A DNA stretch of 50,162 bases from a virus: the IMG/VR virus record IMGVR_UViG_3300045988_054790; one strand, written 5' to 3'. Both the position numbers and the translations under genes were made by a program. Of the stretch, positions 1 through 50,162 are shown in pieces; positions within the stretch are counted from its first letter, which is position 1, and every line of letters starts with the position of its first letter. Below the pieces are notes generated by a model. It saw only the letters and a program-made list of their open reading frames with translations, did no database searches and had not been told where the DNA came from.

Positions 1-55
1 AAGTGTGCGCCGCGAAATCCGTTTGTGCTTACGCTCCAGACGCTCCGCTTGTTCC
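1..55. repeat. Terminal direct repeat copy 1 (circular-assembly overlap)
   Basis: nt 1-55 are identical to nt 50108-50162. A minus-strand ORF reads in frame across the junction. Confidence 0.95.
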
Positions 56-716
56 TACGCCCCGTCTTGTTTTCACTGTTCCCGTGGCTCTCACGTTCTA
101 CCTGTGCGCTGTTGTCGTGAGATCGGCCTCCGGTATAGGCTCCGCCGCCACGGAATGTTCTGGCGTTTCCTTTTGCCGATGTGACTGGTTCGCTGATCGC
201 CGCCGCGTCGAAATAATAGCGCTCTGACTTTGACAGCAGGAAGATGTACTCATGTGACTTCGTGCATCGGTCGCTCACGCTCTCCGGCATACAGTTCGGC
301 TTCTGCCAAATAATGTCTTGCCGCAAATACCAACCGTCTGCACGGAGGGCAAAGGCCAACTGCCAAGGTATGCCGATCAGGTCTTTTTTCTTGTATCCCT
401 GCGGTACGCGCTTTGCGGTGTGTCCGCAGGAATTGCGGGTGTTCGTCGGCGGCTGGTTCCCTGATTTGGTAGCATAGCTATCGCCCACGTTCACCCACAG
501 AGTTCCGTCTGGCCGCAGCACCCGTCGAACCTCACGAAAAACTGTGACCAGCGCCTGCAGGTATTCCTCCACGCTGGCCTCTTTCCCGATCTGCCCCTCC
601 ACTCCGTAATCTCTCAAATTATAGTAGGGCGGGGAGGTCACGCAGGTATGTACGCTTTCTGGCGGCAGTGTCCGCAGCAGCTCCAGCGCGTCGCCTTGCA
701 GAATAATGTAGTTCAT
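1..716 (-). CDS. DNA methyltransferase, beta-class N4-C/N6-A type, N-terminal part (continues at 49912-50107 in the circle)
   Basis: ATG at 716 forms an ATGA overlap with the upstream stop. My translation is MNYIILQGDALELL...VTSPPYYNLRDY...LWVNVGDSY...IIWQKPN, with an SPPY motif IV. The ORF runs off position 1 and joins in frame the part carrying DPFAGSGTT. Total 912 nt, 303 aa. Confidence 0.85.
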   Translation of the reverse strand, partial: MNYIILQGDALELLRTLPPESVHTCVTSPPYYNLRDYGVEGQIGKEASVEEYLQALVTVFREVRRVLRPDGTLWVNVGDSYATKSGNQPPTNTRNSCGHTAKRVPQGYKKKDLIGIPWQLAFALRADGWYLRQDIIWQKPNCMPESVSDRCTKSHEYIFLLSKSERYYFDAAAISEPVTSAKGNARTFRGGGAYTGGRSHDNSAQVERESHGNSENKTGRRNKRSVWSVSTNGFRGAH

Positions 717-5867: not shown

Positions 5868-6140
5868 TTACTCTGCGGCAGCGCGGGCCGTCCTGCGCCG
5901 CCTGTAGTTGTTGATGATCTCCTGCTGTGCCAGCTCCGCGCTGTAACCGATGCGCCCGTTGCTGTCCATTTCCCCGGTGTCTCCCCGTTTCAGCTCGTTA
6001 TATACGGTAGACCGATGCACGTTCAGCTTCGCGGCGATCTCCTCAACGCCGCGCCCTTTGTTATAAAGTGCCTCCAGCTCTGCGCGGTCTTTCAGCGTCA
6101 AATGTCTCTTACCCAAGCCGCTCGCCTCCTCCTTTTCCAT
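5868..6140 (-). CDS. Stand-alone HTH protein resembling the N-terminal DNA-binding domain of IS30-type transposases
   Basis: HLTLKDRAELEALYNKG..IAAKLNVHRSTVYNELKRG parallels HLTKNDRLRIEKWQRRG..IAEKLRVHVSTIYRELKRG of the adjacent transposase. There is no catalytic domain. Confidence 0.7.
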   Translation of the reverse strand: MEKEEASGLGKRHLTLKDRAELEALYNKGRGVEEIAAKLNVHRSTVYNELKRGDTGEMDSNGRIGYSAELAQQEIINNYRRRRTARAAAE

Positions 6141-6148
6141 GCAAATAG

Positions 6149-6197
6149 ATAAAAAAATAAATGCGGGAAAACTCTTTTCGAGTTCTCTCGCATTTAT
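6149..6197 (-). terminator. Intrinsic terminator-like hairpin plus T-run just upstream of the 6140 start codon
   Basis: Arms 6157-6174 and 6180-6197 (18 bp, 2 mismatches). The minus strand reads TTTTTTTA after the hairpin. Confidence 0.55.
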
Positions 6198-6224
6198 TCT
6201 AAATATTCAGCAGGAAAAAATCAA
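6196..6224 (-). promoter_or_regulatory. Sigma70-like promoter TTGATT-N17-TAGAAT
   Basis: -35 at 6224..6219 and -10 at 6201..6196 on the minus strand. Located in an AT-rich spacer upstream of the 5868-6140 operon. Confidence 0.45.
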
Positions 6225-6231
6225 GTATTAA

Positions 6232-7612
6232 ATGCGCACAATTTTTCACTTCTTGTTTTGTCTAATTTTGACAAGCCAAAATGACCGCCGTCATATCCCA
6301 TGGTCGGCAGCCTGTGTATTTTCCTGTTCGGTTCTCCGTGTTCCGCTCTGCTCACGCCCTCTCCCCTCGAATGTCTGCTGTGCTGTTTCTTCCTGTTACG
6401 CGCTCAGTCCGATCTCTCGCAGGCACTCCCGGAACATGACCTCGCTGCTCTTGTACCCCAGTATCTTCCGGGGATAGTTGTTAATCCATTCCTCCGTGGC
6501 CGCGATCTCCGCCGCGCTGACCTTGGAGAAATCTGTGCCTTTCGGATGCCGCCGTCTGATCATGCTGTTGGCGTTCTCGTTGCTCCCCCGTTCCCACGAA
6601 GAATACGGATGGCAGTAGTATACCTTGGTGCGCGGGATGGTCTTATTGACGGCGCTCCGCTCCAGCACCTCCGCCGCCGAAAACTCCGAGCCGTTGTCAA
6701 AGGTGATGCTTTTGAAGATCGCCCGGAACCGCTTGGCACCGCATTTCCGCTCCAGCGCGTCCAGTGCCTTGACCACGGTTTCCGCCTTGCGGTTGGGTAT
6801 CGCTATAATGATGTCTTTCCGTGTCTTGCGCTCGTTCAGGGTCAGCAGGGCGCTGGTGGTCTTGCACTTGCCCTTGCCGCTGTACACGGTGTCGCCCTCC
6901 CAATGGCCGAACTCCTCCCGGCTCTCCACCTCCGGCGGGCGCCGTTCGATGCTATCGCCTGCGGATGCCCGCGCCTGATCTTTCTTGGTCTTGACCTTTT
7001 TGTATTTCTGCTTCACCTTGCCCCGGCGCGGCAAATCCACCTGTGTGATGTGGAGAAAGAGACCCTTTTTGATGTAGCTGTAGATCGTCGTCACGGAAAC
7101 AGAGGTCTCGAATGTCCGCCCCTCCAGCATTGCATATCCAAGGACAGCGGCAGGGCTGCACTCCCGCTCCGTGATTGTTGTCTCAATGTAGTTTGCCAGC
7201 TCGTGATCTTTTCCGATCTTCAAGTCCGGCCCTTTCTCCCGCAGATTGCTTTGGTATCGCGCCTCCGCGATGTCCGGGCTGTACGCCGTCACCATTTCCC
7301 ACGTCTCCCCGTCCAGCCGCTCATACTCCCCGCGCTTCAACTCCCGGTAGATGGTGGAAACGTGGACGCGCAGCTTCTCCGCGATCTGTGGCGGCTTCAA
7401 GCCCCTGCGCTGCCACTTCTCAATGCGCAGCCTGTCGTTCTTGGTCAGATGCTTAAATGTTCGTCCTCCGGTCTGCACCGTAAAGCCTCCTCTCTCGCTC
7501 ACCCGCGCAGGGCGGTGTCGGCGTTTCTGTTCCGCTCTGTCGCTTTTTGTCTTATTATGATACCCACAAAACCAGCATTGTGCAACAGCATTTTTTCGGC
7601 GTATGCGCACAA
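6232..7612 (-). mobile_element. IS30-family insertion sequence (ends approximate)
   Basis: Single DDE transposase gene flanked by the 10-bp direct repeat ATGCGCACAA (6232-6241 and 7603-7612). Terminal inverted repeats could not be defined by eye. Confidence 0.7.
6396..7478 (-). CDS. IS30-family DDE transposase (360 aa)
   Basis: GTG 7478 follows GAGGAGG. An HTH is followed by HWEGDTV, FDNGSEF and SNENANSMIRR, which are DDE-type motifs. Confidence 0.85.
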   Translation of the reverse strand: MQTGGRTFKHLTKNDRLRIEKWQRRGLKPPQIAEKLRVHVSTIYRELKRGEYERLDGETWEMVTAYSPDIAEARYQSNLREKGPDLKIGKDHELANYIETTITERECSPAAVLGYAMLEGRTFETSVSVTTIYSYIKKGLFLHITQVDLPRRGKVKQKYKKVKTKKDQARASAGDSIERRPPEVESREEFGHWEGDTVYSGKGKCKTTSALLTLNERKTRKDIIIAIPNRKAETVVKALDALERKCGAKRFRAIFKSITFDNGSEFSAAEVLERSAVNKTIPRTKVYYCHPYSSWERGSNENANSMIRRRHPKGTDFSKVSAAEIAATEEWINNYPRKILGYKSSEVMFRECLREIGLSA

Positions 7613-11031: not shown

Positions 11032-12001
11032 CTTGCCCGCTCCTTTCTTGCGTGTTCTCTGACCACGCATTTCAATTTCCGCTGCAAGCCCGTCTCCACA
11101 TAGTTCTGGAAAAAGTGGACGTGATTGCAGTGCTTCATCTGGCCCAGTCTGGATAAAAGCCCCTGCGCCAACGCTGGCTTGATCGCGTGGTGCCGCCGCA
11201 TGGTACGGCGGCAGACGGAAAGAGAATGTTTCAGGCGCACCATGTTTCGTTTCCGCAGCAGGGTATACCCTCGCCCGAAGCGATACCCCAGCGCCGCCGC
11301 AGCTTCCGCTTGTTCCGCCCGAACAAGGTAAAGTTGTCCATGTACCGCAGGTAGTGGTCGCACAGGCCGCTTTCCCGTATCAGCCGGTCAAGCGGTTGCA
11401 GCACCGTGTTGGCAAACCATTGGGAAAAGTAAGCGCCGATCAGAATGCCGTGCTTCATCAGCCGCTCGCATACCTCCAGCATCCGCCGGTCTTTCACCAG
11501 CCGCCGGAGCCGCTTCATCACCGTCTCCGCCGTCAAACTGTCGTAGAAATGGTGGATGTCCAGCTCCTCGGCGTACTTCGTCCCTTTTGGGTCTGTCCGC
11601 ATCCACTTCTTGATGGCCCGAACGCCGTAATGGATGCCCCGGTTTCGGATGCTCCCGCAGCAGAAATTGTCCATGCCCCGCATCATGATCGGCTCCAACA
11701 CCTGAATGACGGCGTGATGCACATACTGGTCAGGCCACAGTCTCGGCTCCGATATGTCCCGCCACTTGCCAGCGCTCTTGTCCCAGCGCCGCGCAAGCCT
11801 CGGCTCGTTCGCCTCGTAACCGCCTGTAATGATCTCTCGCAGCTCTTTTACATAGCGGTCAACGTCTGCCTCCACCCGTGCTACCGTCCGGTTTGGCCTG
11901 TGGTGCGGATGGAAGCGGTGTGTCACGTTCACGGCGAAGATCGCCAGCCGCAGGTTTTCTTCCGATACCAGCTTTGGAAATAGGTTGTTTGCTCGTTTCA
12001 T
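10992..12001 (-). pseudogene. DGR-type reverse transcriptase, apparently disrupted (two frames, YMDN box)
   Basis: ATG 12001 follows AAGGAGG. Motifs are ILIGAYFSQWFANTVL and RYMDNFTLFG. Frame 1 stops at 11231. The thumb-like LGYRFGRGYTLLRKRN... continues in the frame of ORF 10992-11363. Confidence 0.75.
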
Positions 12002-12180
12002 CAGGAATGTTTTCCTCCTTTTAGCCTCACGGTCTTTCCATCGCCCCCGCAGGTTGCGGAAGTGTACTAAACCGTGTCCTGATGGCTTATCTGCACCAAG
12101 GGGTGCCGAGGATGTCCGCGCCCCGGCGTGGGTCTTTGCGTTGCCGGGTGTGGAGGTGGGTAGCCAGTCCATAAAAGGAC

Positions 12181-34705: not shown

Positions 34706-34941
34706 TCCATCCACCGCCCTTTCCCCAGACGAACCGCTGTGAAGATTGCCACAATCGCCGTGACCAGCATACCCAGCATTTCCAACTGCGTGACTGCCAG
34801 AAAGCAGCACACCGCTGTCCATCCAGCTATGACCACCGCCGTCGGCACAATCCCCCACGGATGCGGAACCGCTAACACCCCACCCAGCAAAGCCGCAGCC
34901 AGCAACACGCCGCCCAGCAGGATTGTTAAAATGCTTTCCAT
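34702..34941 (-). CDS. Hypothetical membrane protein (three hydrophobic segments)
   Basis: 79 aa. TAATG overlap with the upstream gene. Confidence 0.5.
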   Translation of the reverse strand: MESILTILLGGVLLAAALLGGVLAVPHPWGIVPTAVVIAGWTAVCCFLAVTQLEMLGMLVTAIVAIFTAVRLGKGRWME

Positions 34942-35702
34942 TATGCCATCTCCTCTGCGTCCTCTCCATCCGTTTCCGGGTCTGGTACATCCACCGCGCC
35001 GGTGGCCCTCATGCGCAGCAGCTCCAGCTTCTCCCGCTCCAGCGTCATGCGCTTTTCGCTCTCCTCCAGCGCCCGCAGGCTGTCCGCGATCTTGGCGATG
35101 CGTCCCTGCACCTTGTATAGTGCCTCCTGCAATTTCAGCACACGGCTGAACGCGCTGTCCTTGCTGTACATTCCCATGCTCTGCAAGGCACCGTCCCGCT
35201 TGTCCTTGCCGCGCCCACCCGGCACCCTCATGTCCATCAGACTGTTGATGTACAGACTGTCCTCCGGGGCCGCCTCATACTCCGTGATTTTGGCGAGTAT
35301 CTTGTGTTCCCGGAATTTCAGGATTTGCATTTCATGCTCCAGCGCGGCGCGGCTTCCCAGCGGCGTTTGCTGTACGATCTCCCGCTCCGCGTCCGAGAGC
35401 ATATCAAAAAAGACGGTGCTGTATGCTCCGTCCTTTTCTGCGTTCTTATTTCCCGCCGGTGCGCCCGCATGGCTTCCGGCAGCGTTTTTCTTTCCCGCGC
35501 TGTTGCGGTTTCCCGGTTGACCGCCCCGCCGCTTCTTTGGCAGAGCTTCATCCCACTTGTCCGCTGCTTTCCAATTCCGCAGGGTTTGATAGCTCACGCC
35601 CTGCTCCTGCGCCAGCTCCCGCAGGCTTACTTCCTCGCCCGCCGCCTTGCGGGCGATGTATGCAGCCTTGGCGGTGTCGCGCTTCTCGCTCCGCTTCGGC
35701 AT
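34941..35702 (-). CDS. Terminase small-subunit-like / DNA-binding packaging protein
   Basis: ATG 35702 follows GGAGG. HTH (LRELAQEQGVSYQTLRNW), then G.P.GN.N..K repeats (GGQPGNRNSAGK, GAPAGNKNAEKDG). Confidence 0.55.
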   Translation of the reverse strand: MPKRSEKRDTAKAAYIARKAAGEEVSLRELAQEQGVSYQTLRNWKAADKWDEALPKKRRGGQPGNRNSAGKKNAAGSHAGAPAGNKNAEKDGAYSTVFFDMLSDAEREIVQQTPLGSRAALEHEMQILKFREHKILAKITEYEAAPEDSLYINSLMDMRVPGGRGKDKRDGALQSMGMYSKDSAFSRVLKLQEALYKVQGRIAKIADSLRALEESEKRMTLEREKLELLRMRATGAVDVPDPETDGEDAEEMA

Positions 35703-35904
35703 CCTCACACCTCCAGATAGTCGCGTGTCCCGCCCGGCCTATGAAAATACCCCGCGTAGGAACGCAGGGCTTCGACCGGCGCAGGACACGCCTATGGCAA
35801 AGCCCGCAGCGTTTCCGCCACGGGCTTTATTCCACGCTATGATATTATCACGAAAAACCTGCGGAAGTTGCTAATCCCGAAAAATTTTTTTCAAACCGTC
35901 CGCT

Positions 35905-36930
35905 TTAATATCCTCTAACCTCTTTCCTGCTCAAATAGAGGACGTGCGATATGTAGTATTCAAGTGCGCTCCCCGCATCGTGGTTGACCTGCTCCTGCAT
36001 CTCCCACATGACTTCTTTTTCATAATCAAAAAGCCCTGTCAATTCGGGGCATCTTATCGTTTCGCAGCACAGGCTTTCCACATCGTGCCTCAATGCCAGC
36101 CTATCTTCACATCCTCGCATCAATCCCGCGATCAGGCAGGCCCGCAGCGTGTCCTTGAAATTTCTTGTGTTCTCCAGTTCCCACATTGGATATGTCTCTA
36201 TGAACCTGAACTTGCAGCGAGGAATATCGTAATGTGCGAAAATGGTATGTTTCTTTCCCGAAGTATGCGCAAAGCCCCATTTTTTATCAAACTCTCTGTA
36301 GGCTGCAACAGCCCCGTCATAGTTTAGATTTTTGAGAGACATTGCGGCGCGGTGTATTGCCGTCTCCTCGTCCGAGCGGTACTCCAAGATGGCAGCCTTT
36401 CCTTTTTCCGTAAGTCGGAACAAATGCCCTTTGTGCTTCCTTCGGTCGATTTTAGCGCCGCCATCAAGCAGCTTTTTGGCGAGTGCGCATTTGTTTCCGC
36501 TTTTTGAAACGCCTCGCTCTTTGGCAATCTTCTCCATTTCCTCCCGCGTATAAAGCTCTGCCATCTCCTCGCAAGGCTCCAGCGGTGCGATCATACCGCC
36601 TTTCCGCAGGGCTGAATAAGCCATACTCTTTTTCCCAAAGTCCAGATAGGAAATGTCCTCGTCCGAAAACGGTCTTTTCCTCTCCGTGTTAAACCAGAGT
36701 ATTGCGTATACAAGCCCGCGTGGGTCAGCGTGTCCCGCGCCCTCCAGCGTCTCGAATGTGGGTAGCCCTGCCGGATATAGCCATTCTCGCTCGACCGTCA
36801 TATCTTTTTGGCGGTATTCCTCCGCAGGAGTTTCATATTCGACATCTGCTTTTTGTCCTTCCTTGGCTTTCCCTGCGCCGCTGTTAAATCCGTCCCGGAA
36901 CGCCCTTACCAATTCCCGCAACACTCCCAT
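35905..36930 (-). CDS. Hypothetical protein, low-GC accessory gene in the repressor position
   Basis: 341 aa. AGGAGGG RBS. Visibly AT-richer than its flanks. It has a SAP-like segment (EEMEKIAKERGVSKSGNKCALAKKLLDGG) and a possible winged-helix segment (LFRLTEKGKAAILEY). Confidence 0.75.
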   Translation of the reverse strand: MGVLRELVRAFRDGFNSGAGKAKEGQKADVEYETPAEEYRQKDMTVEREWLYPAGLPTFETLEGAGHADPRGLVYAILWFNTERKRPFSDEDISYLDFGKKSMAYSALRKGGMIAPLEPCEEMAELYTREEMEKIAKERGVSKSGNKCALAKKLLDGGAKIDRRKHKGHLFRLTEKGKAAILEYRSDEETAIHRAAMSLKNLNYDGAVAAYREFDKKWGFAHTSGKKHTIFAHYDIPRCKFRFIETYPMWELENTRNFKDTLRACLIAGLMRGCEDRLALRHDVESLCCETIRCPELTGLFDYEKEVMWEMQEQVNHDAGSALEYYISHVLYLSRKEVRGY

Positions 36931-36989
36931 GATACGCCGACCCTCCTCTGCACATTATCCCTCTCCACTGTGTTCTCCGCCTCGGCATA

Positions 36990-37041
36990 TTGTAAATCTT
37001 TTTGTCTTTTTTCTCTGCTTTCTTATATTTTGTAAATCTTT
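36990..37041. promoter_or_regulatory. Two copies of TTGTAAATCTTT (40-bp spacing), candidate operators
   Basis: Exact 12-mers at 36990-37001 and 37030-37041, in the divergent intergenic region. Confidence 0.5.
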
Positions 37042-37047
37042 ATTACA

Positions 37048-37076
37048 AGATTATCTGTAAAAAATGGTATTGTCAA
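37048..37076 (-). promoter_or_regulatory. Sigma70-like promoter TTGACA-N17-TAATCT driving the 341-aa gene
   Basis: -35 at 37076..37071 and -10 at 37053..37048 on the minus strand. Confidence 0.55.
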
Positions 37077-37097
37077 GCAGAACAGGAGGTACGGCTT

Positions 37098-37352
37098 ATG
37101 AAAATATATGATTACTCCGGGCGGGCCAATATCTCCGGCGACCGAATACATCAGGCGAGAACGGCCCAGCGGCTTTCCCAAGATGCCCTCGCCGCCAAGA
37201 TGCAGGTCTGCGGTGTTGGTCTTGGTAGGGAGGCCATCAGCCGCATCGAGACCGGCGACCGCTTCGTGACCGACTATGAGCTTGCCATCTTCGCCCGCGT
37301 CCTCGGCGTTTCCCTTGAATGGCTCACCGGCGATTTGGAACAGAAAGAATAA
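37098..37352 (+). CDS. XRE-family HTH regulator (Cro/CI-type, 84 aa)
   Basis: IHQARTAQRLSQDALAAKMQVCGVGLGREAISRIETGDR. AGGAGG lies 8 nt upstream of the ATG. Confidence 0.85.
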   Translation: MKIYDYSGRANISGDRIHQARTAQRLSQDALAAKMQVCGVGLGREAISRIETGDRFVTDYELAIFARVLGVSLEWLTGDLEQKE

Positions 37353-37353
37353 T

Positions 37354-37396
37354 AGCGGAGCTGCCAACAGACTGTAGGCAGTTCCGCTTTTCTATT
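37354..37396 (+). terminator. Rho-independent terminator after the cro-like gene
   Basis: 12-bp stem (one mismatch) at 37354-37365 / 37377-37388, followed by TTTTCTATTT. Confidence 0.7.
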
Positions 37397-37571
37397 TCCC
37401 GGTGCGGCATCGTCGTCCCGCTCTCCCTCTGACCATTTTCGTGATGCCACGAAAATGATACCCGCCGTCAGATGCTTCACCGCCGCCGACCTCTGCGCAG
37501 CCCGCATCCCCTCGCGCATACGCGAGCGCCCGCCCGTTCCATATATACAGCCGCCCGCCTTTCTCGTCATC

Positions 37572-37599
37572 AGCCGCCGCATAGGCGGCTTCTTTTTTG
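37572..37599 (+). terminator. Second terminator-like hairpin with T-run
   Basis: AGCCGCC-gcata-GGCGGCT followed by TCTTTTTTG. Confidence 0.5.
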
Positions 37600-37775
37600 C
37601 CCAAAACCGCCCCGTTTTCTTCCTCTGTCGCATTTTTGACCCCGCCAACTTTTCCCGCCCCGGCTCCCCGGAAGCGGTTTTTTGACCCCTTACCTAAAAA
37701 AATTTTGGGCTTCCGAACCCGCAAAGGACGACCGCCGCGCCGCCAGTACCTCGCGCGGGCGCGTTTAGAATTTCG

Positions 37776-37996
37776 CGCGGGCCTGCGCGTCGTGGTATCT
37801 TCGCGGGCGCGGGCGTTTGGTATCTCCTGCGGCCTGCTGGCCTGTGGGGCTGGTGGATGGCTGGCCGCTCTGGCGGCGAATGGCTCGCGCTATGCTGCGC
37901 CTGCGGGCCTGCGCGGCATGGTATCTCTGCGCGGGCCTGCGCGTTTGGTATCTCCTGCGCCTGCCCGGCTGGCGGCGCTGGCGGATGGCTGACCGC
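37776..37996. repeat. Imperfect tandem duplication (~126-128 bp period) carrying four TGGTATCT cores
   Basis: Cores at 37793, 37818, 37919 and 37946, each preceded by GGCCTGCGCG-like sequence. Each unit ends in GG(T/C)GGATGGCTG(G/A)CCGC. Confidence 0.8.
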
Positions 37997-38082
37997 CCTG
38001 CCGACTGCAGGAACTGGCCGCCGTCCTGCCGACCGTCTGCCCGCCGTGCCGACACGCCGACCGCCCCGACCGCCGCGACCGC

Positions 38083-38142
38083 CTGCCGCGCCGGTCTGCC
38101 GATCTACCGCCGTGACCGTCTGCCGCGCCGGTCTGCCGATCT
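38083..38142. repeat. 23-bp direct repeat CTGCCGCGCCGGTCTGCCGATCT x2 (37-bp period) within a TGCCGA(C/T)-rich tract
   Basis: Exact copies at 38083-38105 and 38120-38142. Related TGCCGAC motifs occur from ~37998. Confidence 0.8.
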
Positions 38143-38334
38143 GCCGCCGGGCAGGCCGGAGCCGCCGCCGAGGGTATTTACCGCGCCCGGTATCGTCCCC
38201 GGATAAGCTAAGCTAATATGCCCCCTATAGTCCCCCAAATGCAGCGATTTGCACAGAAAACGCCACGGAATTTTGTGCAAAAAAACTTCCCCACGTCCCC
38301 CCTAAAGGGGGACTGGGGAACGAAAACAGCCCTA

Positions 38335-39272: not shown

Positions 39273-39366
39273 CCCAGCGCAAGCGGATACTTTAGCAGGG
39301 CTGCACCGCACAAAGCAACCCAGCCCCAGAAGCAAAACCCAAAAACAAGATCAGGAGGAACACAAG

Positions 39367-40284: not shown

Positions 40285-40383
40285 CAAAACCCAAGCCGAA
40301 ACGGCCCGCCGGGGCCGTCCGCCGGGAACGGCCGCCCGGTGCTGATGATGGCAGGCCGAACACAAAAACGAGGAGGCAACAAA

Positions 40384-40790: not shown

Positions 40791-40883
40791 CCCCCCGCCG
40801 CCGGACACCTTGGACGGGCCGCACCGAACAAAGCGACCCGACCCCACGCACAAAACCAAATCACAAATCAGGAGGTACACAAA

Positions 40884-49915: not shown

Positions 49916-50162
49916 TCCACCTCCGCTATTCTTCCTGCGGCCATTTCTACATACGAGGGATTGATCTCACATCCCACAAAACCGCGCCCCATGCGTTTAG
50001 GCACCACGCCTGTTGTGCCGCTGCCCGCAAATGGGTCAAGTACAACTCCGCCCTCTGGGCAGCCTGCTATAATGCACGGCTCAATCAGCTTTTCTGGGAA
50101 CACGGCGAAGTGTGCGCCGCGAAATCCGTTTGTGCTTACGCTCCAGACGCTCCGCTTGTTCC
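49912..50162 (-). CDS. C-terminal part of the junction-spanning beta-class DNA methyltransferase (see 1-716)
   Basis: ...FPEKLIEPCIIAGCPEGGVVLDPFAGSGTTGVV...GCEINPSYVEMA. The frame is open to the window end. Confidence 0.85.
   Translation of the reverse strand, partial: NKRSVWSVSTNGFRGAHFAVFPEKLIEPCIIAGCPEGGVVLDPFAGSGTTGVVPKRMGRGFVGCEINPSYVEMAAGRIAEVE
50108..50162. repeat. Terminal direct repeat copy 2
   Basis: Identical to nt 1-55. Confidence 0.95.

What the first reader, a model, noticed from the sequence alone, without database searches (positions are those of the whole stretch)
35905..37097. Low-GC 341-aa gene occupies the repressor slot of a divergent switch; no canonical CI
The gene at 35905-36930 is clearly AT-richer than the rest of the genome. 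It has a near-consensus promoter (TTGACA-N17-TAATCT, 37048-37076) that overlaps, face to face, a TG-extended -10-like TGGTATTGT of the cro-like gene. It is also preceded by two exact TTGTAAATCTTT repeats 40 bp apart. The protein has no HTH_XRE or S24 peptidase signature. It shows only a SAP-like segment and a possible winged-helix stretch. It may be an atypical lysogeny or immunity factor, or a moron such as a superinfection-exclusion or defence gene. Its function cannot be read from the sequence.
Basis: partly seen in the sequence, partly recalled or inferred. Interest (0 to 1): 0.65.

Follow-up and report, generated by a model that had tools for sequence, protein, structure and literature searches.

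The report
Swappable accessory gene beside phage switch
The AT-rich 341-aa gene is not the phage's repressor but a swappable accessory gene ("moron") beside the phage's small XRE regulator; it encodes an uncharacterised, probably membrane-associated DNA-binding protein that most likely acts in phage-phage or phage-host conflict.

Summary
The ORF 35905-36930 (-) is the lowest-GC kilobase of a complete ~50-kb circular temperate phage of Oscillospiraceae. The two 12-mers, the TTGACA-N17-TAATCT promoter and the overlapping TGGTATTGT element are all present and are conserved in relatives.

The gene is not in a "repressor slot". Phages whose XRE, operators and small terminase are 93-100% identical to the window's carry a 365-aa lipoprotein there instead. 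Other relatives carry other lipoproteins, a DUF4236 protein or SWIM-finger proteins. Homology breaks at 36982/36983 and resumes at 35890/35891, so the gene is a 1.09-kb cassette with its own upstream promoter and downstream hairpin: a classical moron.

The protein has these parts:
- an N-terminal amphipathic helix, replaced by transmembrane helices in at least 21 of 90 homologues;
- a weakly supported winged-helix-like region;
- a SAP domain;
- a confidently modelled all-helical C-terminal domain with no PDB match.

It has no Pfam (beyond SAP), PHROG, NCBIfam or PADLOC assignment. The family also occurs as extreme low-GC single-gene islands in chromosomes, one flanked by a perfect 45-bp repeat.

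My best guess is an XRE-controlled, membrane-proximal DNA-binding exclusion or defence factor. That function is inferred, not shown.

The parts
35905..36930 (-). Cargo gene, 341 aa. Parts: N-terminal amphipathic helix (aa 3-17), disordered linker (18-45), small alpha/beta winged-helix-like region (46-116 plus strand 170-173), SAP motif (about 121-156), and a novel all-helical C-terminal domain (175-340) carrying the invariant WGFxHTSGKxHTIFAHYDIP and TLRACLxAGLMRG motifs.
   Evidence: ORF. Family alignment of 35 members. AF2 full length pLDDT 84.8, pTM 0.77. C-terminal domain pLDDT 91.8, pTM 0.86. SAP in 29/35 members. dN/dS 0.14-0.38, so a real gene under purifying selection.
35891..36982 (.). 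The variable cassette. This 1,092-bp stretch has no similarity to the otherwise 97-99.7% identical phage L061, which carries a lipoprotein gene here.
   Evidence: blastn of window against L061: homology 37400-36983 (96.7%) and 35890-35601 (99.7%), nothing in between. Multiple alignments of both junctions.
37048..37076 (-). Predicted promoter of the cargo gene: TTGACA, 17-nt spacer, TAATCT. Predicted start near 37041.
   Evidence: Sequence. Conserved with its spacing upstream of five different cargo genes. Not experimentally mapped.
37065..37073 (+). Predicted TG-extended -10 (TGGTATTGT) of the XRE gene. It lies on the strand opposite the cargo -35. Predicted start near 37080.
   Evidence: Sequence. 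TGnTAnnnT is kept in all four operator classes.
37030..37048 (.). Operator O1, the palindrome TTGTAAATCTTTATTACAA. It covers -7..+12 of the predicted cargo promoter and is centred about -41 from the predicted XRE start.
   Evidence: Unique in the window. Invariant among type-A relatives. Positions relative to transcription starts are inferred.
36990..37001 (.). Operator-like repeat O2 (TTGTAAATCTTT), 40 bp from O1, within the cargo 5' leader. The cassette boundary lies immediately beyond it.
37098..37352 (+). 84-aa XRE-family HTH protein, the probable switch or immunity regulator that controls the divergent promoters.
   Evidence: Pfam HTH_3 6e-9 and PHROG repressor families. Paired with the slot in nearly every locus. 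XRE variants co-vary with the operator sequence.
37354..37388 (+). Intrinsic terminator directly after the XRE gene (16 predicted pairs, followed by UUUUCUAUUU).
   Evidence: Fold -24.8 kcal/mol, z -4.85, 0 of 200 shuffles as stable.
35798..35830 (-). 14-bp hairpin downstream of the cargo gene. It is part of the conserved backbone and probably ends cargo transcription.
   Evidence: Fold. Conserved in all cargo variants.
35724..35790 (-). Rfam DUF3800-VIII RNA motif just upstream of the small terminase gene. Context only, not part of the cassette.
   Evidence: 69.4 bits against a gathering score of 40.2.
34941..35708 (-). Small terminase, the first gene of the packaging and structural block. 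Context only.
   Evidence: phrog_1889 8e-57, Pfam Phage_terminase.

Best explanation
The gene is a moron: a horizontally acquired, self-contained 1.09-kb cargo cassette in a hypervariable slot between the phage's XRE regulatory region and the late (terminase) operon.

It is transcribed from a backbone promoter, TTGACA-N17-TAATCT. That promoter lies back-to-back with the XRE gene's extended -10 promoter and is overlapped by XRE operators. The 84-aa XRE protein therefore sets its expression, and a conserved hairpin insulates it from the terminase genes.

The product is cytoplasmic. It is held at the inner face of the membrane by an N-terminal amphipathic helix, which is replaced by transmembrane helices in many homologues. 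It carries two nucleic-acid-binding modules (winged-helix-like and SAP) and a conserved helical domain of unknown fold.

The most likely role is a conflict function, either superinfection exclusion or abortive-type defence, acting on DNA at the membrane. The alternative cargos of the same slot, which are mostly lipoproteins, would do the equivalent from the outer face.

Shown: cassette and moron status, the regulatory architecture at sequence level, and the domain composition.
Inferred: membrane association, DNA binding, timing of expression, and the exclusion or defence function.
For: Variable slot. In L061, L064, L065, L068, L070, L072 and L119 the XRE is 96-100% and TerS 93-100% identical to the window's, yet the slot holds a 365-aa lipoprotein. 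Other relatives hold lipoproteins of 280, 351, 357 or 385 aa, a DUF4236 protein, or SWIM-finger proteins.

Sharp breakpoints at 36982/36983 and 35890/35891, with backbone conservation of the promoter, operators and downstream hairpin.

Deviant composition: lowest-GC kilobase of the genome, GC3 0.57 against about 0.8. Other cargos also have lower GC than their phages.

The XRE-plus-slot module occurs at two different genome positions in related phages: next to TerS, or between the holin and the IS30-like integrase. The XRE has its own terminator.

Operators occur nowhere else in the genome.

N-terminus. Of 90 full-length homologues, 21 have a hydrophobic TM segment and 53 start with MG[LIVF]. 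The window's helix has a hydrophobic moment of 0.73-0.80. L096 (this family) and L101 (SWIM family) share an identical 2-TM anchor and linker and differ only after about codon 66.

SAP is significant in 29/35 members.

The gene is real and evolves faster than the backbone: dN/dS 0.14-0.38 against 0.02-0.04 for TerL. Family identity falls to 40% where TerL stays at 73-91%.

Mobility as a single gene. Chromosomal copies are islands of GC 0.34-0.39 in DNA of GC 0.60, between core genes. One is flanked by a perfect 45-bp direct repeat.
Against: There is no functional evidence. The protein has no match in PADLOC, PHROGs (annotated families), NCBIfam or Pfam beyond SAP, so exclusion or defence is argued from context only.

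The window's own protein lacks a TM segment, and its SAP hit is below Pfam's threshold.

O1 sits on the predicted start of the cargo promoter. If XRE is the lysogenic repressor, the gene might be largely off in lysogens, which fits an early or transient role better than constitutive prophage-mediated exclusion.

The alternative cargos are themselves of unknown function, so they support 'membrane-associated accessory gene' but not any specific activity.

The winged-helix assignment is weak.
Confidence: 0.55

Rival explanations
1. An early or transient phage gene rather than a prophage-expressed one. The cargo promoter fires only while XRE is scarce, that is, just after DNA entry or at induction. 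The protein then acts on host or phage DNA at the membrane during establishment or lytic growth, for example host takeover, early exclusion of co-infecting phages as with T4 Imm/Sp or T5 Llp, or anchoring the phage genome.
For: O1 covers -7..+12 of the predicted cargo promoter and lies at about -41 of the predicted XRE promoter. This is the lambda PR/PRM logic, in which the regulator shuts the divergent promoter and stimulates its own (inference). A second operator copy lies in the cargo leader.
Against: Transcription starts are predicted, not measured. In the second genome position the XRE gene sits 36 nt upstream of the integrase gene and the cargo gene is an isolated, convergently oriented unit next to the lysis genes; from general knowledge, this is the typical place for lysogenic-conversion genes. 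Chromosomal copies have their own promoter and no XRE, so the protein works outside an infection programme.
Confidence: 0.2
2. A selfish or neutral passenger: a mobile single-gene cassette of cellular origin, for example a membrane-DNA tether, that lands in permissive sites including this phage slot and has no role in phage biology.
For: Solitary copies lie between core genes (CBAH|secG; after rpoA-rplQ). A 45-bp perfect direct repeat flanks one copy. The closest relatives of the window's protein outside its own phage lineage (57-58% identity) include chromosomal, TM-anchored forms.
Against: Purifying selection acts on the phage copies. The slot always sits under a conserved, XRE-controlled promoter, and the slot is filled in all 34 loci where it could be read, which argues that the phage benefits from whatever is there. 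The chromosomal copies are themselves foreign (GC 0.34-0.39 against 0.60) rather than native housekeeping genes.
Confidence: 0.12
3. An atypical lysogeny repressor or immunity factor: the SAP/winged-helix protein binds phage DNA and maintains lysogeny, with the 84-aa XRE acting as Cro.
For: It is divergent from a small XRE gene. It has DNA-binding-type domains. No XRE+S24 repressor was found in the genome.
Against: Near-identical phages with the same XRE and operators carry a secreted lipoprotein in its place. The operator sequence co-varies with the XRE variant, not with the cargo. The same family occurs without any phage context. TM-anchored variants are unlikely transcriptional repressors.
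Confidence: 0.04
4. A toxin-antitoxin-like or abortive pair in which the XRE protein is the specific antitoxin or sensor-regulator of this protein.
For: The XRE gene and a family member are neighbours in two different genome positions and at a contig end next to host purine genes.
Against: The same XRE (100% identical) is paired with unrelated cargos. The genes are divergent, not operonic. Solitary copies lack an XRE gene.
Confidence: 0.04

Closest known systems
Morons of lambdoid phages (Hendrix/Juhala concept, e.g. HK97/HK022; from my own knowledge)
   Same: A single extra gene with its own promoter and terminator, present in some but not other near-identical phages, with base composition unlike the backbone. 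All three criteria were tested here and met.
   Different: The promoter belongs to the backbone and is wired to the phage's XRE operators. The cassette begins only after the second operator. The cargo family is new.
Prophage-mediated defence and exclusion genes next to the immunity cassette (cluster N mycobacteriophages; Sie2009 of lactococcal P335 phages; Ltp lipoprotein of S. thermophilus TP-J34; lambda rexAB, P22 sieA; from my own knowledge)
   Same: Variable, often membrane-associated or lipoprotein genes placed beside the repressor or integrase in otherwise conserved temperate phages. The alternative cargos here are mostly lipoproteins.
   Different: No sequence or fold similarity to any of them (no PADLOC or PHROG hit). 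This protein is cytoplasmic-facing and has SAP and winged-helix-like DNA-binding modules. No phenotype is known.
SAP-domain proteins (Pfam PF02037; FAN1, Tho1, PIAS/SIZ1, Ku70)
   Same: The helix-extended loop-helix SAP motif, with the G-x-K and L positions invariant in the family (G145, K147, L154).
   Different: Only the ~35-aa motif is shared. FAN1's nuclease domain is absent and the match is weak (Foldseek E 3e-3, TM about 0.2). The rest of the protein has no counterpart.
Lambda-type divergent switch (PRM/PR with CI at OR2)
   Same: Two divergent promoters controlled from shared operators, one of them centred about -41 from the regulator's own promoter. XRE and operator sequences diversify together, like immunity types.
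   Different: The two promoters share the same roughly 30 bp on opposite strands (the -35 of one is the extended -10 of the other). The regulator is only 84 aa with no S24 domain. The divergent gene is a replaceable accessory gene, not cro. Operators occur at this single site only.

Membership tests
Moron (accessory cassette in a temperate phage) | Present or absent among otherwise near-identical phages | tested here: met
   The window against L061 is 96.7-99.7% identical on both sides, with 1,092 bp unrelated in between. At least seven phages with 96-100% identical XRE carry a lipoprotein instead.
Moron (accessory cassette in a temperate phage) | Own promoter upstream and terminator downstream | tested here: inconclusive
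   A TTGACA-N17-TAATCT promoter upstream and a 14-bp hairpin downstream are predicted and conserved. Both belong to the backbone rather than the cassette, and neither has been mapped experimentally.
Moron (accessory cassette in a temperate phage) | Base composition unlike the surrounding genome | tested here: met
   GC 0.506 against 0.600 (3.3 sd); GC3 0.57 against 0.76-0.87.
CI/LexA-type phage repressor | XRE-type HTH plus S24 peptidase or an equivalent oligomerisation domain | tested here: not met
   No HTH_3, HTH_31 or Peptidase_S24 hit at E<=1. No PHROG repressor family.
CI/LexA-type phage repressor | Indispensable single-copy switch component whose specificity co-varies with the operators | tested here: not met
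   It is replaced by unrelated genes while the operators stay identical. The operators co-vary with the 84-aa XRE instead.
SAP domain (PF02037) | SAP motif above the Pfam threshold | tested here: inconclusive
   The window's own protein gives only sub-threshold hits to two other SAP-type models (SAP_new25 18.0 bits against a 26.3 cut-off; FANC_SAP) and none to PF02037 itself. 29/35 family members match SAP, best 2e-10. The profile hits SAP structures 2rno and Tho1 weakly. The motif residues G145, K147 and L154 are invariant.
FAN1-like nuclease | VRR-NUC nuclease domain C-terminal to SAP-TPR | tested here: not met
   No VRR_NUC Pfam hit. The isolated C-terminal domain has no PDB match (best E 1.0). 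The FAN1 hits have TM about 0.2.
Known anti-phage defence systems (PADLOC-DB v2) | Match to any defence protein model | tested here: not met
   0 families at E<=1.
Superinfection-exclusion proteins (Sie/Ltp/Imm type) | Membrane-associated | tested here: inconclusive
   21/90 homologues have a TM segment and 53/90 an MG[LIVF] start. The window's protein has only an amphipathic helix with hydrophobic moment 0.73-0.80. No localisation data.
Superinfection-exclusion proteins (Sie/Ltp/Imm type) | Blocks DNA entry of superinfecting phage without affecting adsorption | not testable with these tools
   Needs phage challenge assays.

The most novel reading that the evidence does not exclude
The family is a new single-gene anti-phage system. 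A DNA-binding protein (SAP plus winged helix) is tethered to the inner face of the membrane. It captures or senses incoming phage DNA at the entry site, and its novel C-terminal domain (invariant H222/K226/H228/C294 cluster) acts as effector. It spreads both as phage cargo and as a ~1.1-kb integrase-less cassette flanked by att-like 45-bp repeats.
Probability: 0.2. Interest if true: 0.7.

Novelty: new member of a known kind. Interest (0 to 1): 0.42.

Why it matters
The finding defines a hypervariable accessory-gene slot wired to the immunity switch in a widespread lineage of human and animal gut Oscillospiraceae phages. It also identifies an unannotated protein family that fills about half of the readable slots: about 105 clusters at 90% identity, one of them with more than 1,000 member sequences. 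Such slots are where prophages keep the genes that decide which other phages can infect their host, and for this host group almost nothing is known about them. The family combines a membrane anchor with DNA-binding modules and a confidently modelled domain with no solved structural relative, and it also moves as a very AT-rich single-gene island. This makes it a concrete, testable candidate for a new exclusion or defence mechanism. An isolate carrying an 88%-identical variant (Oscillospiraceae bacterium CM74B_53B) is a possible experimental entry point.

Tried and rejected
Searches that found nothing useful:
- Sequence searches of the protein against Pfam, PHROGs, NCBIfam and PADLOC gave nothing beyond a weak SAP hit.
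- phmmer and a profile search against PDB sequences found only SAP motifs.
- tblastn against 50,697 deposited phage genomes found no match.
- Foldseek of the full model gave weak FAN1 (SAP+TPR) and MarR hits with TM about 0.2, and SAP-only hits in BFVD.
- Foldseek of the isolated C-terminal domain found no match.
- hhalign of the family against the SWIM-type cargo found no homology except the N-terminal 12 residues.
- An exhaustive profile search of 1.8 billion representatives showed a small family proper (35 representatives at E<1e-30). Beyond it lies a looser set sharing only the SAP and linker region, some ending in an LPxHWGCRC motif that I did not follow.
- Two literature searches found nothing relevant.

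Ideas rejected:
- The gene as CI-like repressor, because of the slot replacement.
- XRE as its specific antitoxin, because the same XRE is paired with unrelated cargos.
- A Walker-A or HKD reading of the HTSGKKHT motif, because the spacing does not fit (my own inspection).
- The hairpin at 35749-35770 as a simple terminator, because it is part of the Rfam DUF3800-VIII motif.
Full report
THE OBSERVATION

The window is a complete circular phage genome: the first and last 55 bases are identical. Its GC content is 0.60. Its large terminase is distantly related to those of Faecalibacterium phages, and close relatives sit in Oscillospiraceae genomes and many IMG/VR contigs.

The ORF 35905..36930 (-) encodes 341 aa. 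It is the lowest-GC kilobase of the genome: GC 0.506 against a mean of 0.600 (sd 0.029), with GC3 0.57 against 0.76-0.87 in the neighbouring genes.

The 12-mer TTGTAAATCTTT occurs exactly twice, at 36990 and 37030 (expected 0.07). A third, degenerate copy follows 40 bp further on. The 37030 copy is half of a perfect palindrome, TTGTAA-N7-TTACAA, that is unique in the genome.

So is TGGTATTGT on the + strand, at 37065-37073. The -10 matches only 3 of 6 positions, and the consensus scan did not report the site. Its reality therefore rests on conservation, described below.

The divergent gene at 37098-37352 encodes an 84-aa XRE-family HTH protein.

THE GENE IS CARGO IN A VARIABLE SLOT

On the - strand the gene lies directly upstream of the small terminase (34941-35708) and the large terminase. 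I fetched 42 viral and 6 genomic loci that encode family members, and 80 loci that encode relatives of the large terminase. I then mapped the window's proteins onto them.

In L061, L064, L065, L068, L070, L072 and L119, the XRE is 96-100% and the small terminase 93-100% identical to the window's. Yet the slot between them holds a 365-aa protein with a signal peptide and an LLAGC lipobox.

Other relatives hold different genes in the same place:
- lipoproteins of 280, 351, 357 and 385 aa;
- a DUF4236 protein with a hydrophobic C-terminal segment;
- a second cytoplasmic family carrying a SWIM zinc finger.

Of the 34 loci where both the XRE and the small terminase are recognisable, about half carry the SAP family and half carry something else.

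Pairwise blastn of the window against L061 gives 96.7% identity from 37400 to 36983. There is no similarity across 36982-35891. Identity is 99.7% from 35890 onward. Multiple alignments place the upstream junction immediately after the second operator copy, and the downstream junction about 20 nt after the stop codon.

The gene is therefore a 1.09-kb cassette. By presence or absence, by composition, and by having a promoter upstream and a hairpin downstream, it is a classical moron. A lipoprotein cannot be a repressor, so this is not a repressor slot.

THE REGULATORY REGION

The stretch from the XRE start codon to the second operator is backbone. It is conserved upstream of five different cargos. 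Four XRE variants occur in relatives (about 47-62% identical to one another), and each has its own repeated operator sequence:
- AAAGATTTACAA, as in the window;
- TAATCATCTTT / AAAGATGATTA;
- TTATCCCAAAGATG...;
- ATGGTAATATCCCATAA.

The layout stays the same in all of them. A TTGAC[A/G/T]-type -35 and a -10 located 17 nt downstream drive the cargo. The reverse complement of the -35 region always reads TGnTAnnnT, an extended -10 pointing into the XRE gene.

The predicted transcription starts are 37041 for the cargo and 37080 for the XRE gene. With these, O1 covers -7..+12 of the cargo promoter and is centred about -41 from the XRE start. That is the geometry of lambda PR/PRM. This step is inference.

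The operators occur nowhere else in the genome. The XRE gene is followed by a strong terminator at 37354-37388 (-24.8 kcal/mol, z -4.85). The cargo gene is followed by a conserved 14-bp hairpin, and then by an Rfam DUF3800-VIII RNA motif in front of the terminase gene.

In a second group of related phages the whole module sits elsewhere, between the holin and an IS30-like DDE integrase (HTH_38 + rve). There the XRE gene lies 36 nt upstream of the integrase gene, and the cargo gene is an isolated unit that converges on the lysis genes. In one such phage the terminase-proximal position holds neither an XRE gene nor a cargo gene (L118 and L039 are the same contig).

In that phage, then, there is a single XRE-plus-slot module, at the other position. 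Together with the co-variation of XRE and operators, this suggests that the 84-aa XRE is the phage's immunity or switch regulator, and that the slot is an accessory position wired to it.

No XRE+S24 protein was found among the roughly 40 window proteins I scanned.

THE PROTEIN

About 105 clusters of homologues exist. None is named beyond 'hypothetical protein'. The exact window sequence occurs on 21 contigs of up to 186 kb.

AlphaFold2 with 35 sequences gives pLDDT 84.8 and pTM 0.77. The model shows:
- an N-terminal helix (aa 3-17);
- a disordered linker (aa 18-45);
- a small alpha/beta region (aa 46-116, plus a strand at 170-173) whose pattern ...L.K.GLI...LF.LTE.G resembles a winged helix;
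- a SAP motif (about aa 121-156) inserted into that region;
- an all-helical C-terminal domain (aa 175-340).

SAP is significant in 29 of 35 members but sub-threshold in the window's own protein.

Foldseek of the full model finds only FAN1 (SAP+TPR; E 3e-3, TM about 0.2), MarR-type regulators with low probability, and SAP-annotated proteins of uncultured gut phages. The C-terminal domain modelled alone (pLDDT 91.8, pTM 0.86) has no PDB match (best E 1.0, TM about 0.2).

The C-terminal domain carries the invariant or near-invariant residues D215, W218, H222, S224, G225, K226, H228, T229, N254, R263, C265, C294, Y325 and Y326. I could not assign them to any known site.

Of 90 full-length homologues, 21 have a clear N-terminal transmembrane segment (a few more are borderline) and 53 begin with MG[LIVF]. 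The window's helix is strongly amphipathic, with a hydrophobic moment of 0.73-0.80.

L096 (this family) and L101 (the SWIM family) are 98% identical at the DNA level from the XRE gene through about 66 codons of the cargo ORF. Those codons encode a two-TM anchor and a Pro/Ala/Lys-rich linker. The two sequences diverge completely after that point. One homologue, P0033, fuses TM helices, a SWIM finger and this family's domains. The anchor is thus an exchangeable module, which argues that position at the membrane matters for function.

dN/dS is 0.14-0.38, against 0.02-0.04 for the large terminase. Protein identity drops to about 40% in phages whose terminase stays at 73-91%. The gene is functional but fast-evolving.

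COPIES OUTSIDE PHAGES

Some family members sit alone between core genes: between a choloylglycine hydrolase gene and secG/rnr (P0007), and directly after rpoA-rplQ (P0026). These copies are strikingly foreign, with GC 0.387 and 0.342 in DNA of GC 0.60-0.61.

The first is flanked by a perfect 45-bp direct repeat that duplicates the 3' end of the upstream gene, 1,145 bp apart. This looks like an att-type duplication around a cassette that has no integrase. The second has its own TTGACA-N17-TAACCT promoter.

Another copy lies at a contig end. An XRE fragment lies on one side, and a purine operon interspersed with immunity-type genes on the other.

INTERPRETATION

Shown:
- The gene is a real, selected, horizontally mobile single-gene cassette.
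- It occupies a hypervariable slot.
- Its promoter is part of the backbone and is overlapped by the operators of the adjacent XRE.
- The product combines a SAP motif with a domain that has no solved structural relative.

Inferred:
- The protein sits at the inner face of the membrane and binds DNA.
- Like the lipoproteins that replace it, it serves a conflict function such as superinfection exclusion or abortive defence.

Context supports this inference: a variable slot next to the immunity region, low GC, fast evolution and membrane association. From general knowledge, these traits characterise Sie, Abi and prophage-defence genes. No homology and no experiment supports it.

The main uncertainty is timing. 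The operator geometry suggests that XRE represses the gene. This would fit early or transient expression at least as well as constitutive expression in lysogens.

VERDICT

The 'repressor slot' reading is rejected. The 'moron' reading is supported. This is a new member of a known kind (phage accessory cargo) encoding an uncharacterised family. Its interest is moderate, and would rise if a defence or exclusion phenotype or a catalytic activity of the C-terminal domain were found.

Noticed in passing
window 39283-39335 (+), 40801-40853 (+), 40294-40360 (+): Three Rfam self-cleaving-ribozyme-type matches lie between genes of the rightward early operon: RAGATH-5 twice (61-62 bits, gathering score 50) and Hammerhead type II (57.7 bits, gathering score 37).
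   Followed up: no
window 12015-12105 (-) and 11231-12172 (-): An Rfam RT-18 RNA (79 bits) overlaps the 5' end of an ORF with a reverse-transcriptase domain (RVT_1, 3e-8). Both lie in the tail-fibre and CBM_5_12 region, which suggests a diversity-generating retroelement.
   Followed up: partly
window 35724-35790 (-) and 35833-35885 (-): An Rfam DUF3800-VIII RNA motif lies directly upstream of the small terminase. It is preceded by a promoter-like element (TTAGCA...TGATAATAT) and a 14-bp hairpin, both conserved across all cargo variants. This may be a late-operon promoter/terminator (antitermination-type) control region.
   Followed up: partly
window 37400-38217: An ~820-bp GC-rich (0.66) stretch without a convincing ORF lies between the XRE terminator and the first early gene. 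It is full of direct repeats: 78-nt and 39-nt units 126-128 bp apart containing GCG..TGGTATCT, and a 37-nt tandem pair at 38069-38142. A gap of similar length separates the XRE gene from the next early gene in close relatives. It could be an origin, iterons, attP or promoters.
   Followed up: partly
window 1-55 and 50108-50162: The contig ends are identical over 55 bp, so the assembly is circular and the ~50.1-kb phage genome is complete.
   Followed up: yes
window 6396-7610 (-), 5868-6116 (-): An IS30-like DDE protein (HTH_38 + rve; phrog_4646 'transposase', 3e-127) lies just downstream of the holin and endolysin genes, followed by a separate 82-aa HTH_38 protein. It is the only integrase candidate found, and a local GC dip lies at 6001-6500. 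In related phages the XRE-plus-cargo module lies immediately upstream of this gene.
   Followed up: partly
L001 9922-9966 and 11067-11111: A perfect 45-bp direct repeat, duplicating the 3' end of a choloylglycine hydrolase gene, brackets a solitary low-GC family member (GC 0.387 against 0.611). This looks like an att-type duplication around a 1.1-kb cassette with no integrase.
   Followed up: partly
L084 3167-4273, L091 318-1406, L101 708-1904: A second unannotated cargo family (362-398 aa, SWIM zinc finger, phrog_20233 'unknown') uses the same N-terminal styles as the SAP family (MGLLNFLAKTFLDG..., or the identical two-TM anchor). This shows domain shuffling behind a shared anchor. P0033 fuses TM helices, SWIM and the SAP-family domains.
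   Followed up: partly
P0156, P0180, P0227 (distant SAP proteins): A looser set of 300-400-aa SAP proteins matches only the SAP and linker part of the profile (E 1e-7 to 1e-11). Several end in a conserved LPxHWGCRC motif. No Pfam family other than SAP was found for them.
   Followed up: no
L004 2167-9892: In an uncultured Eubacteriales MAG, a purine-biosynthesis operon is interspersed with immunity-protein-type genes (Imm1, SMI1_KNR4, Imm33/DUF1266, DUF6630). It lies next to a family member and an XRE fragment at the contig end.
   Followed up: no
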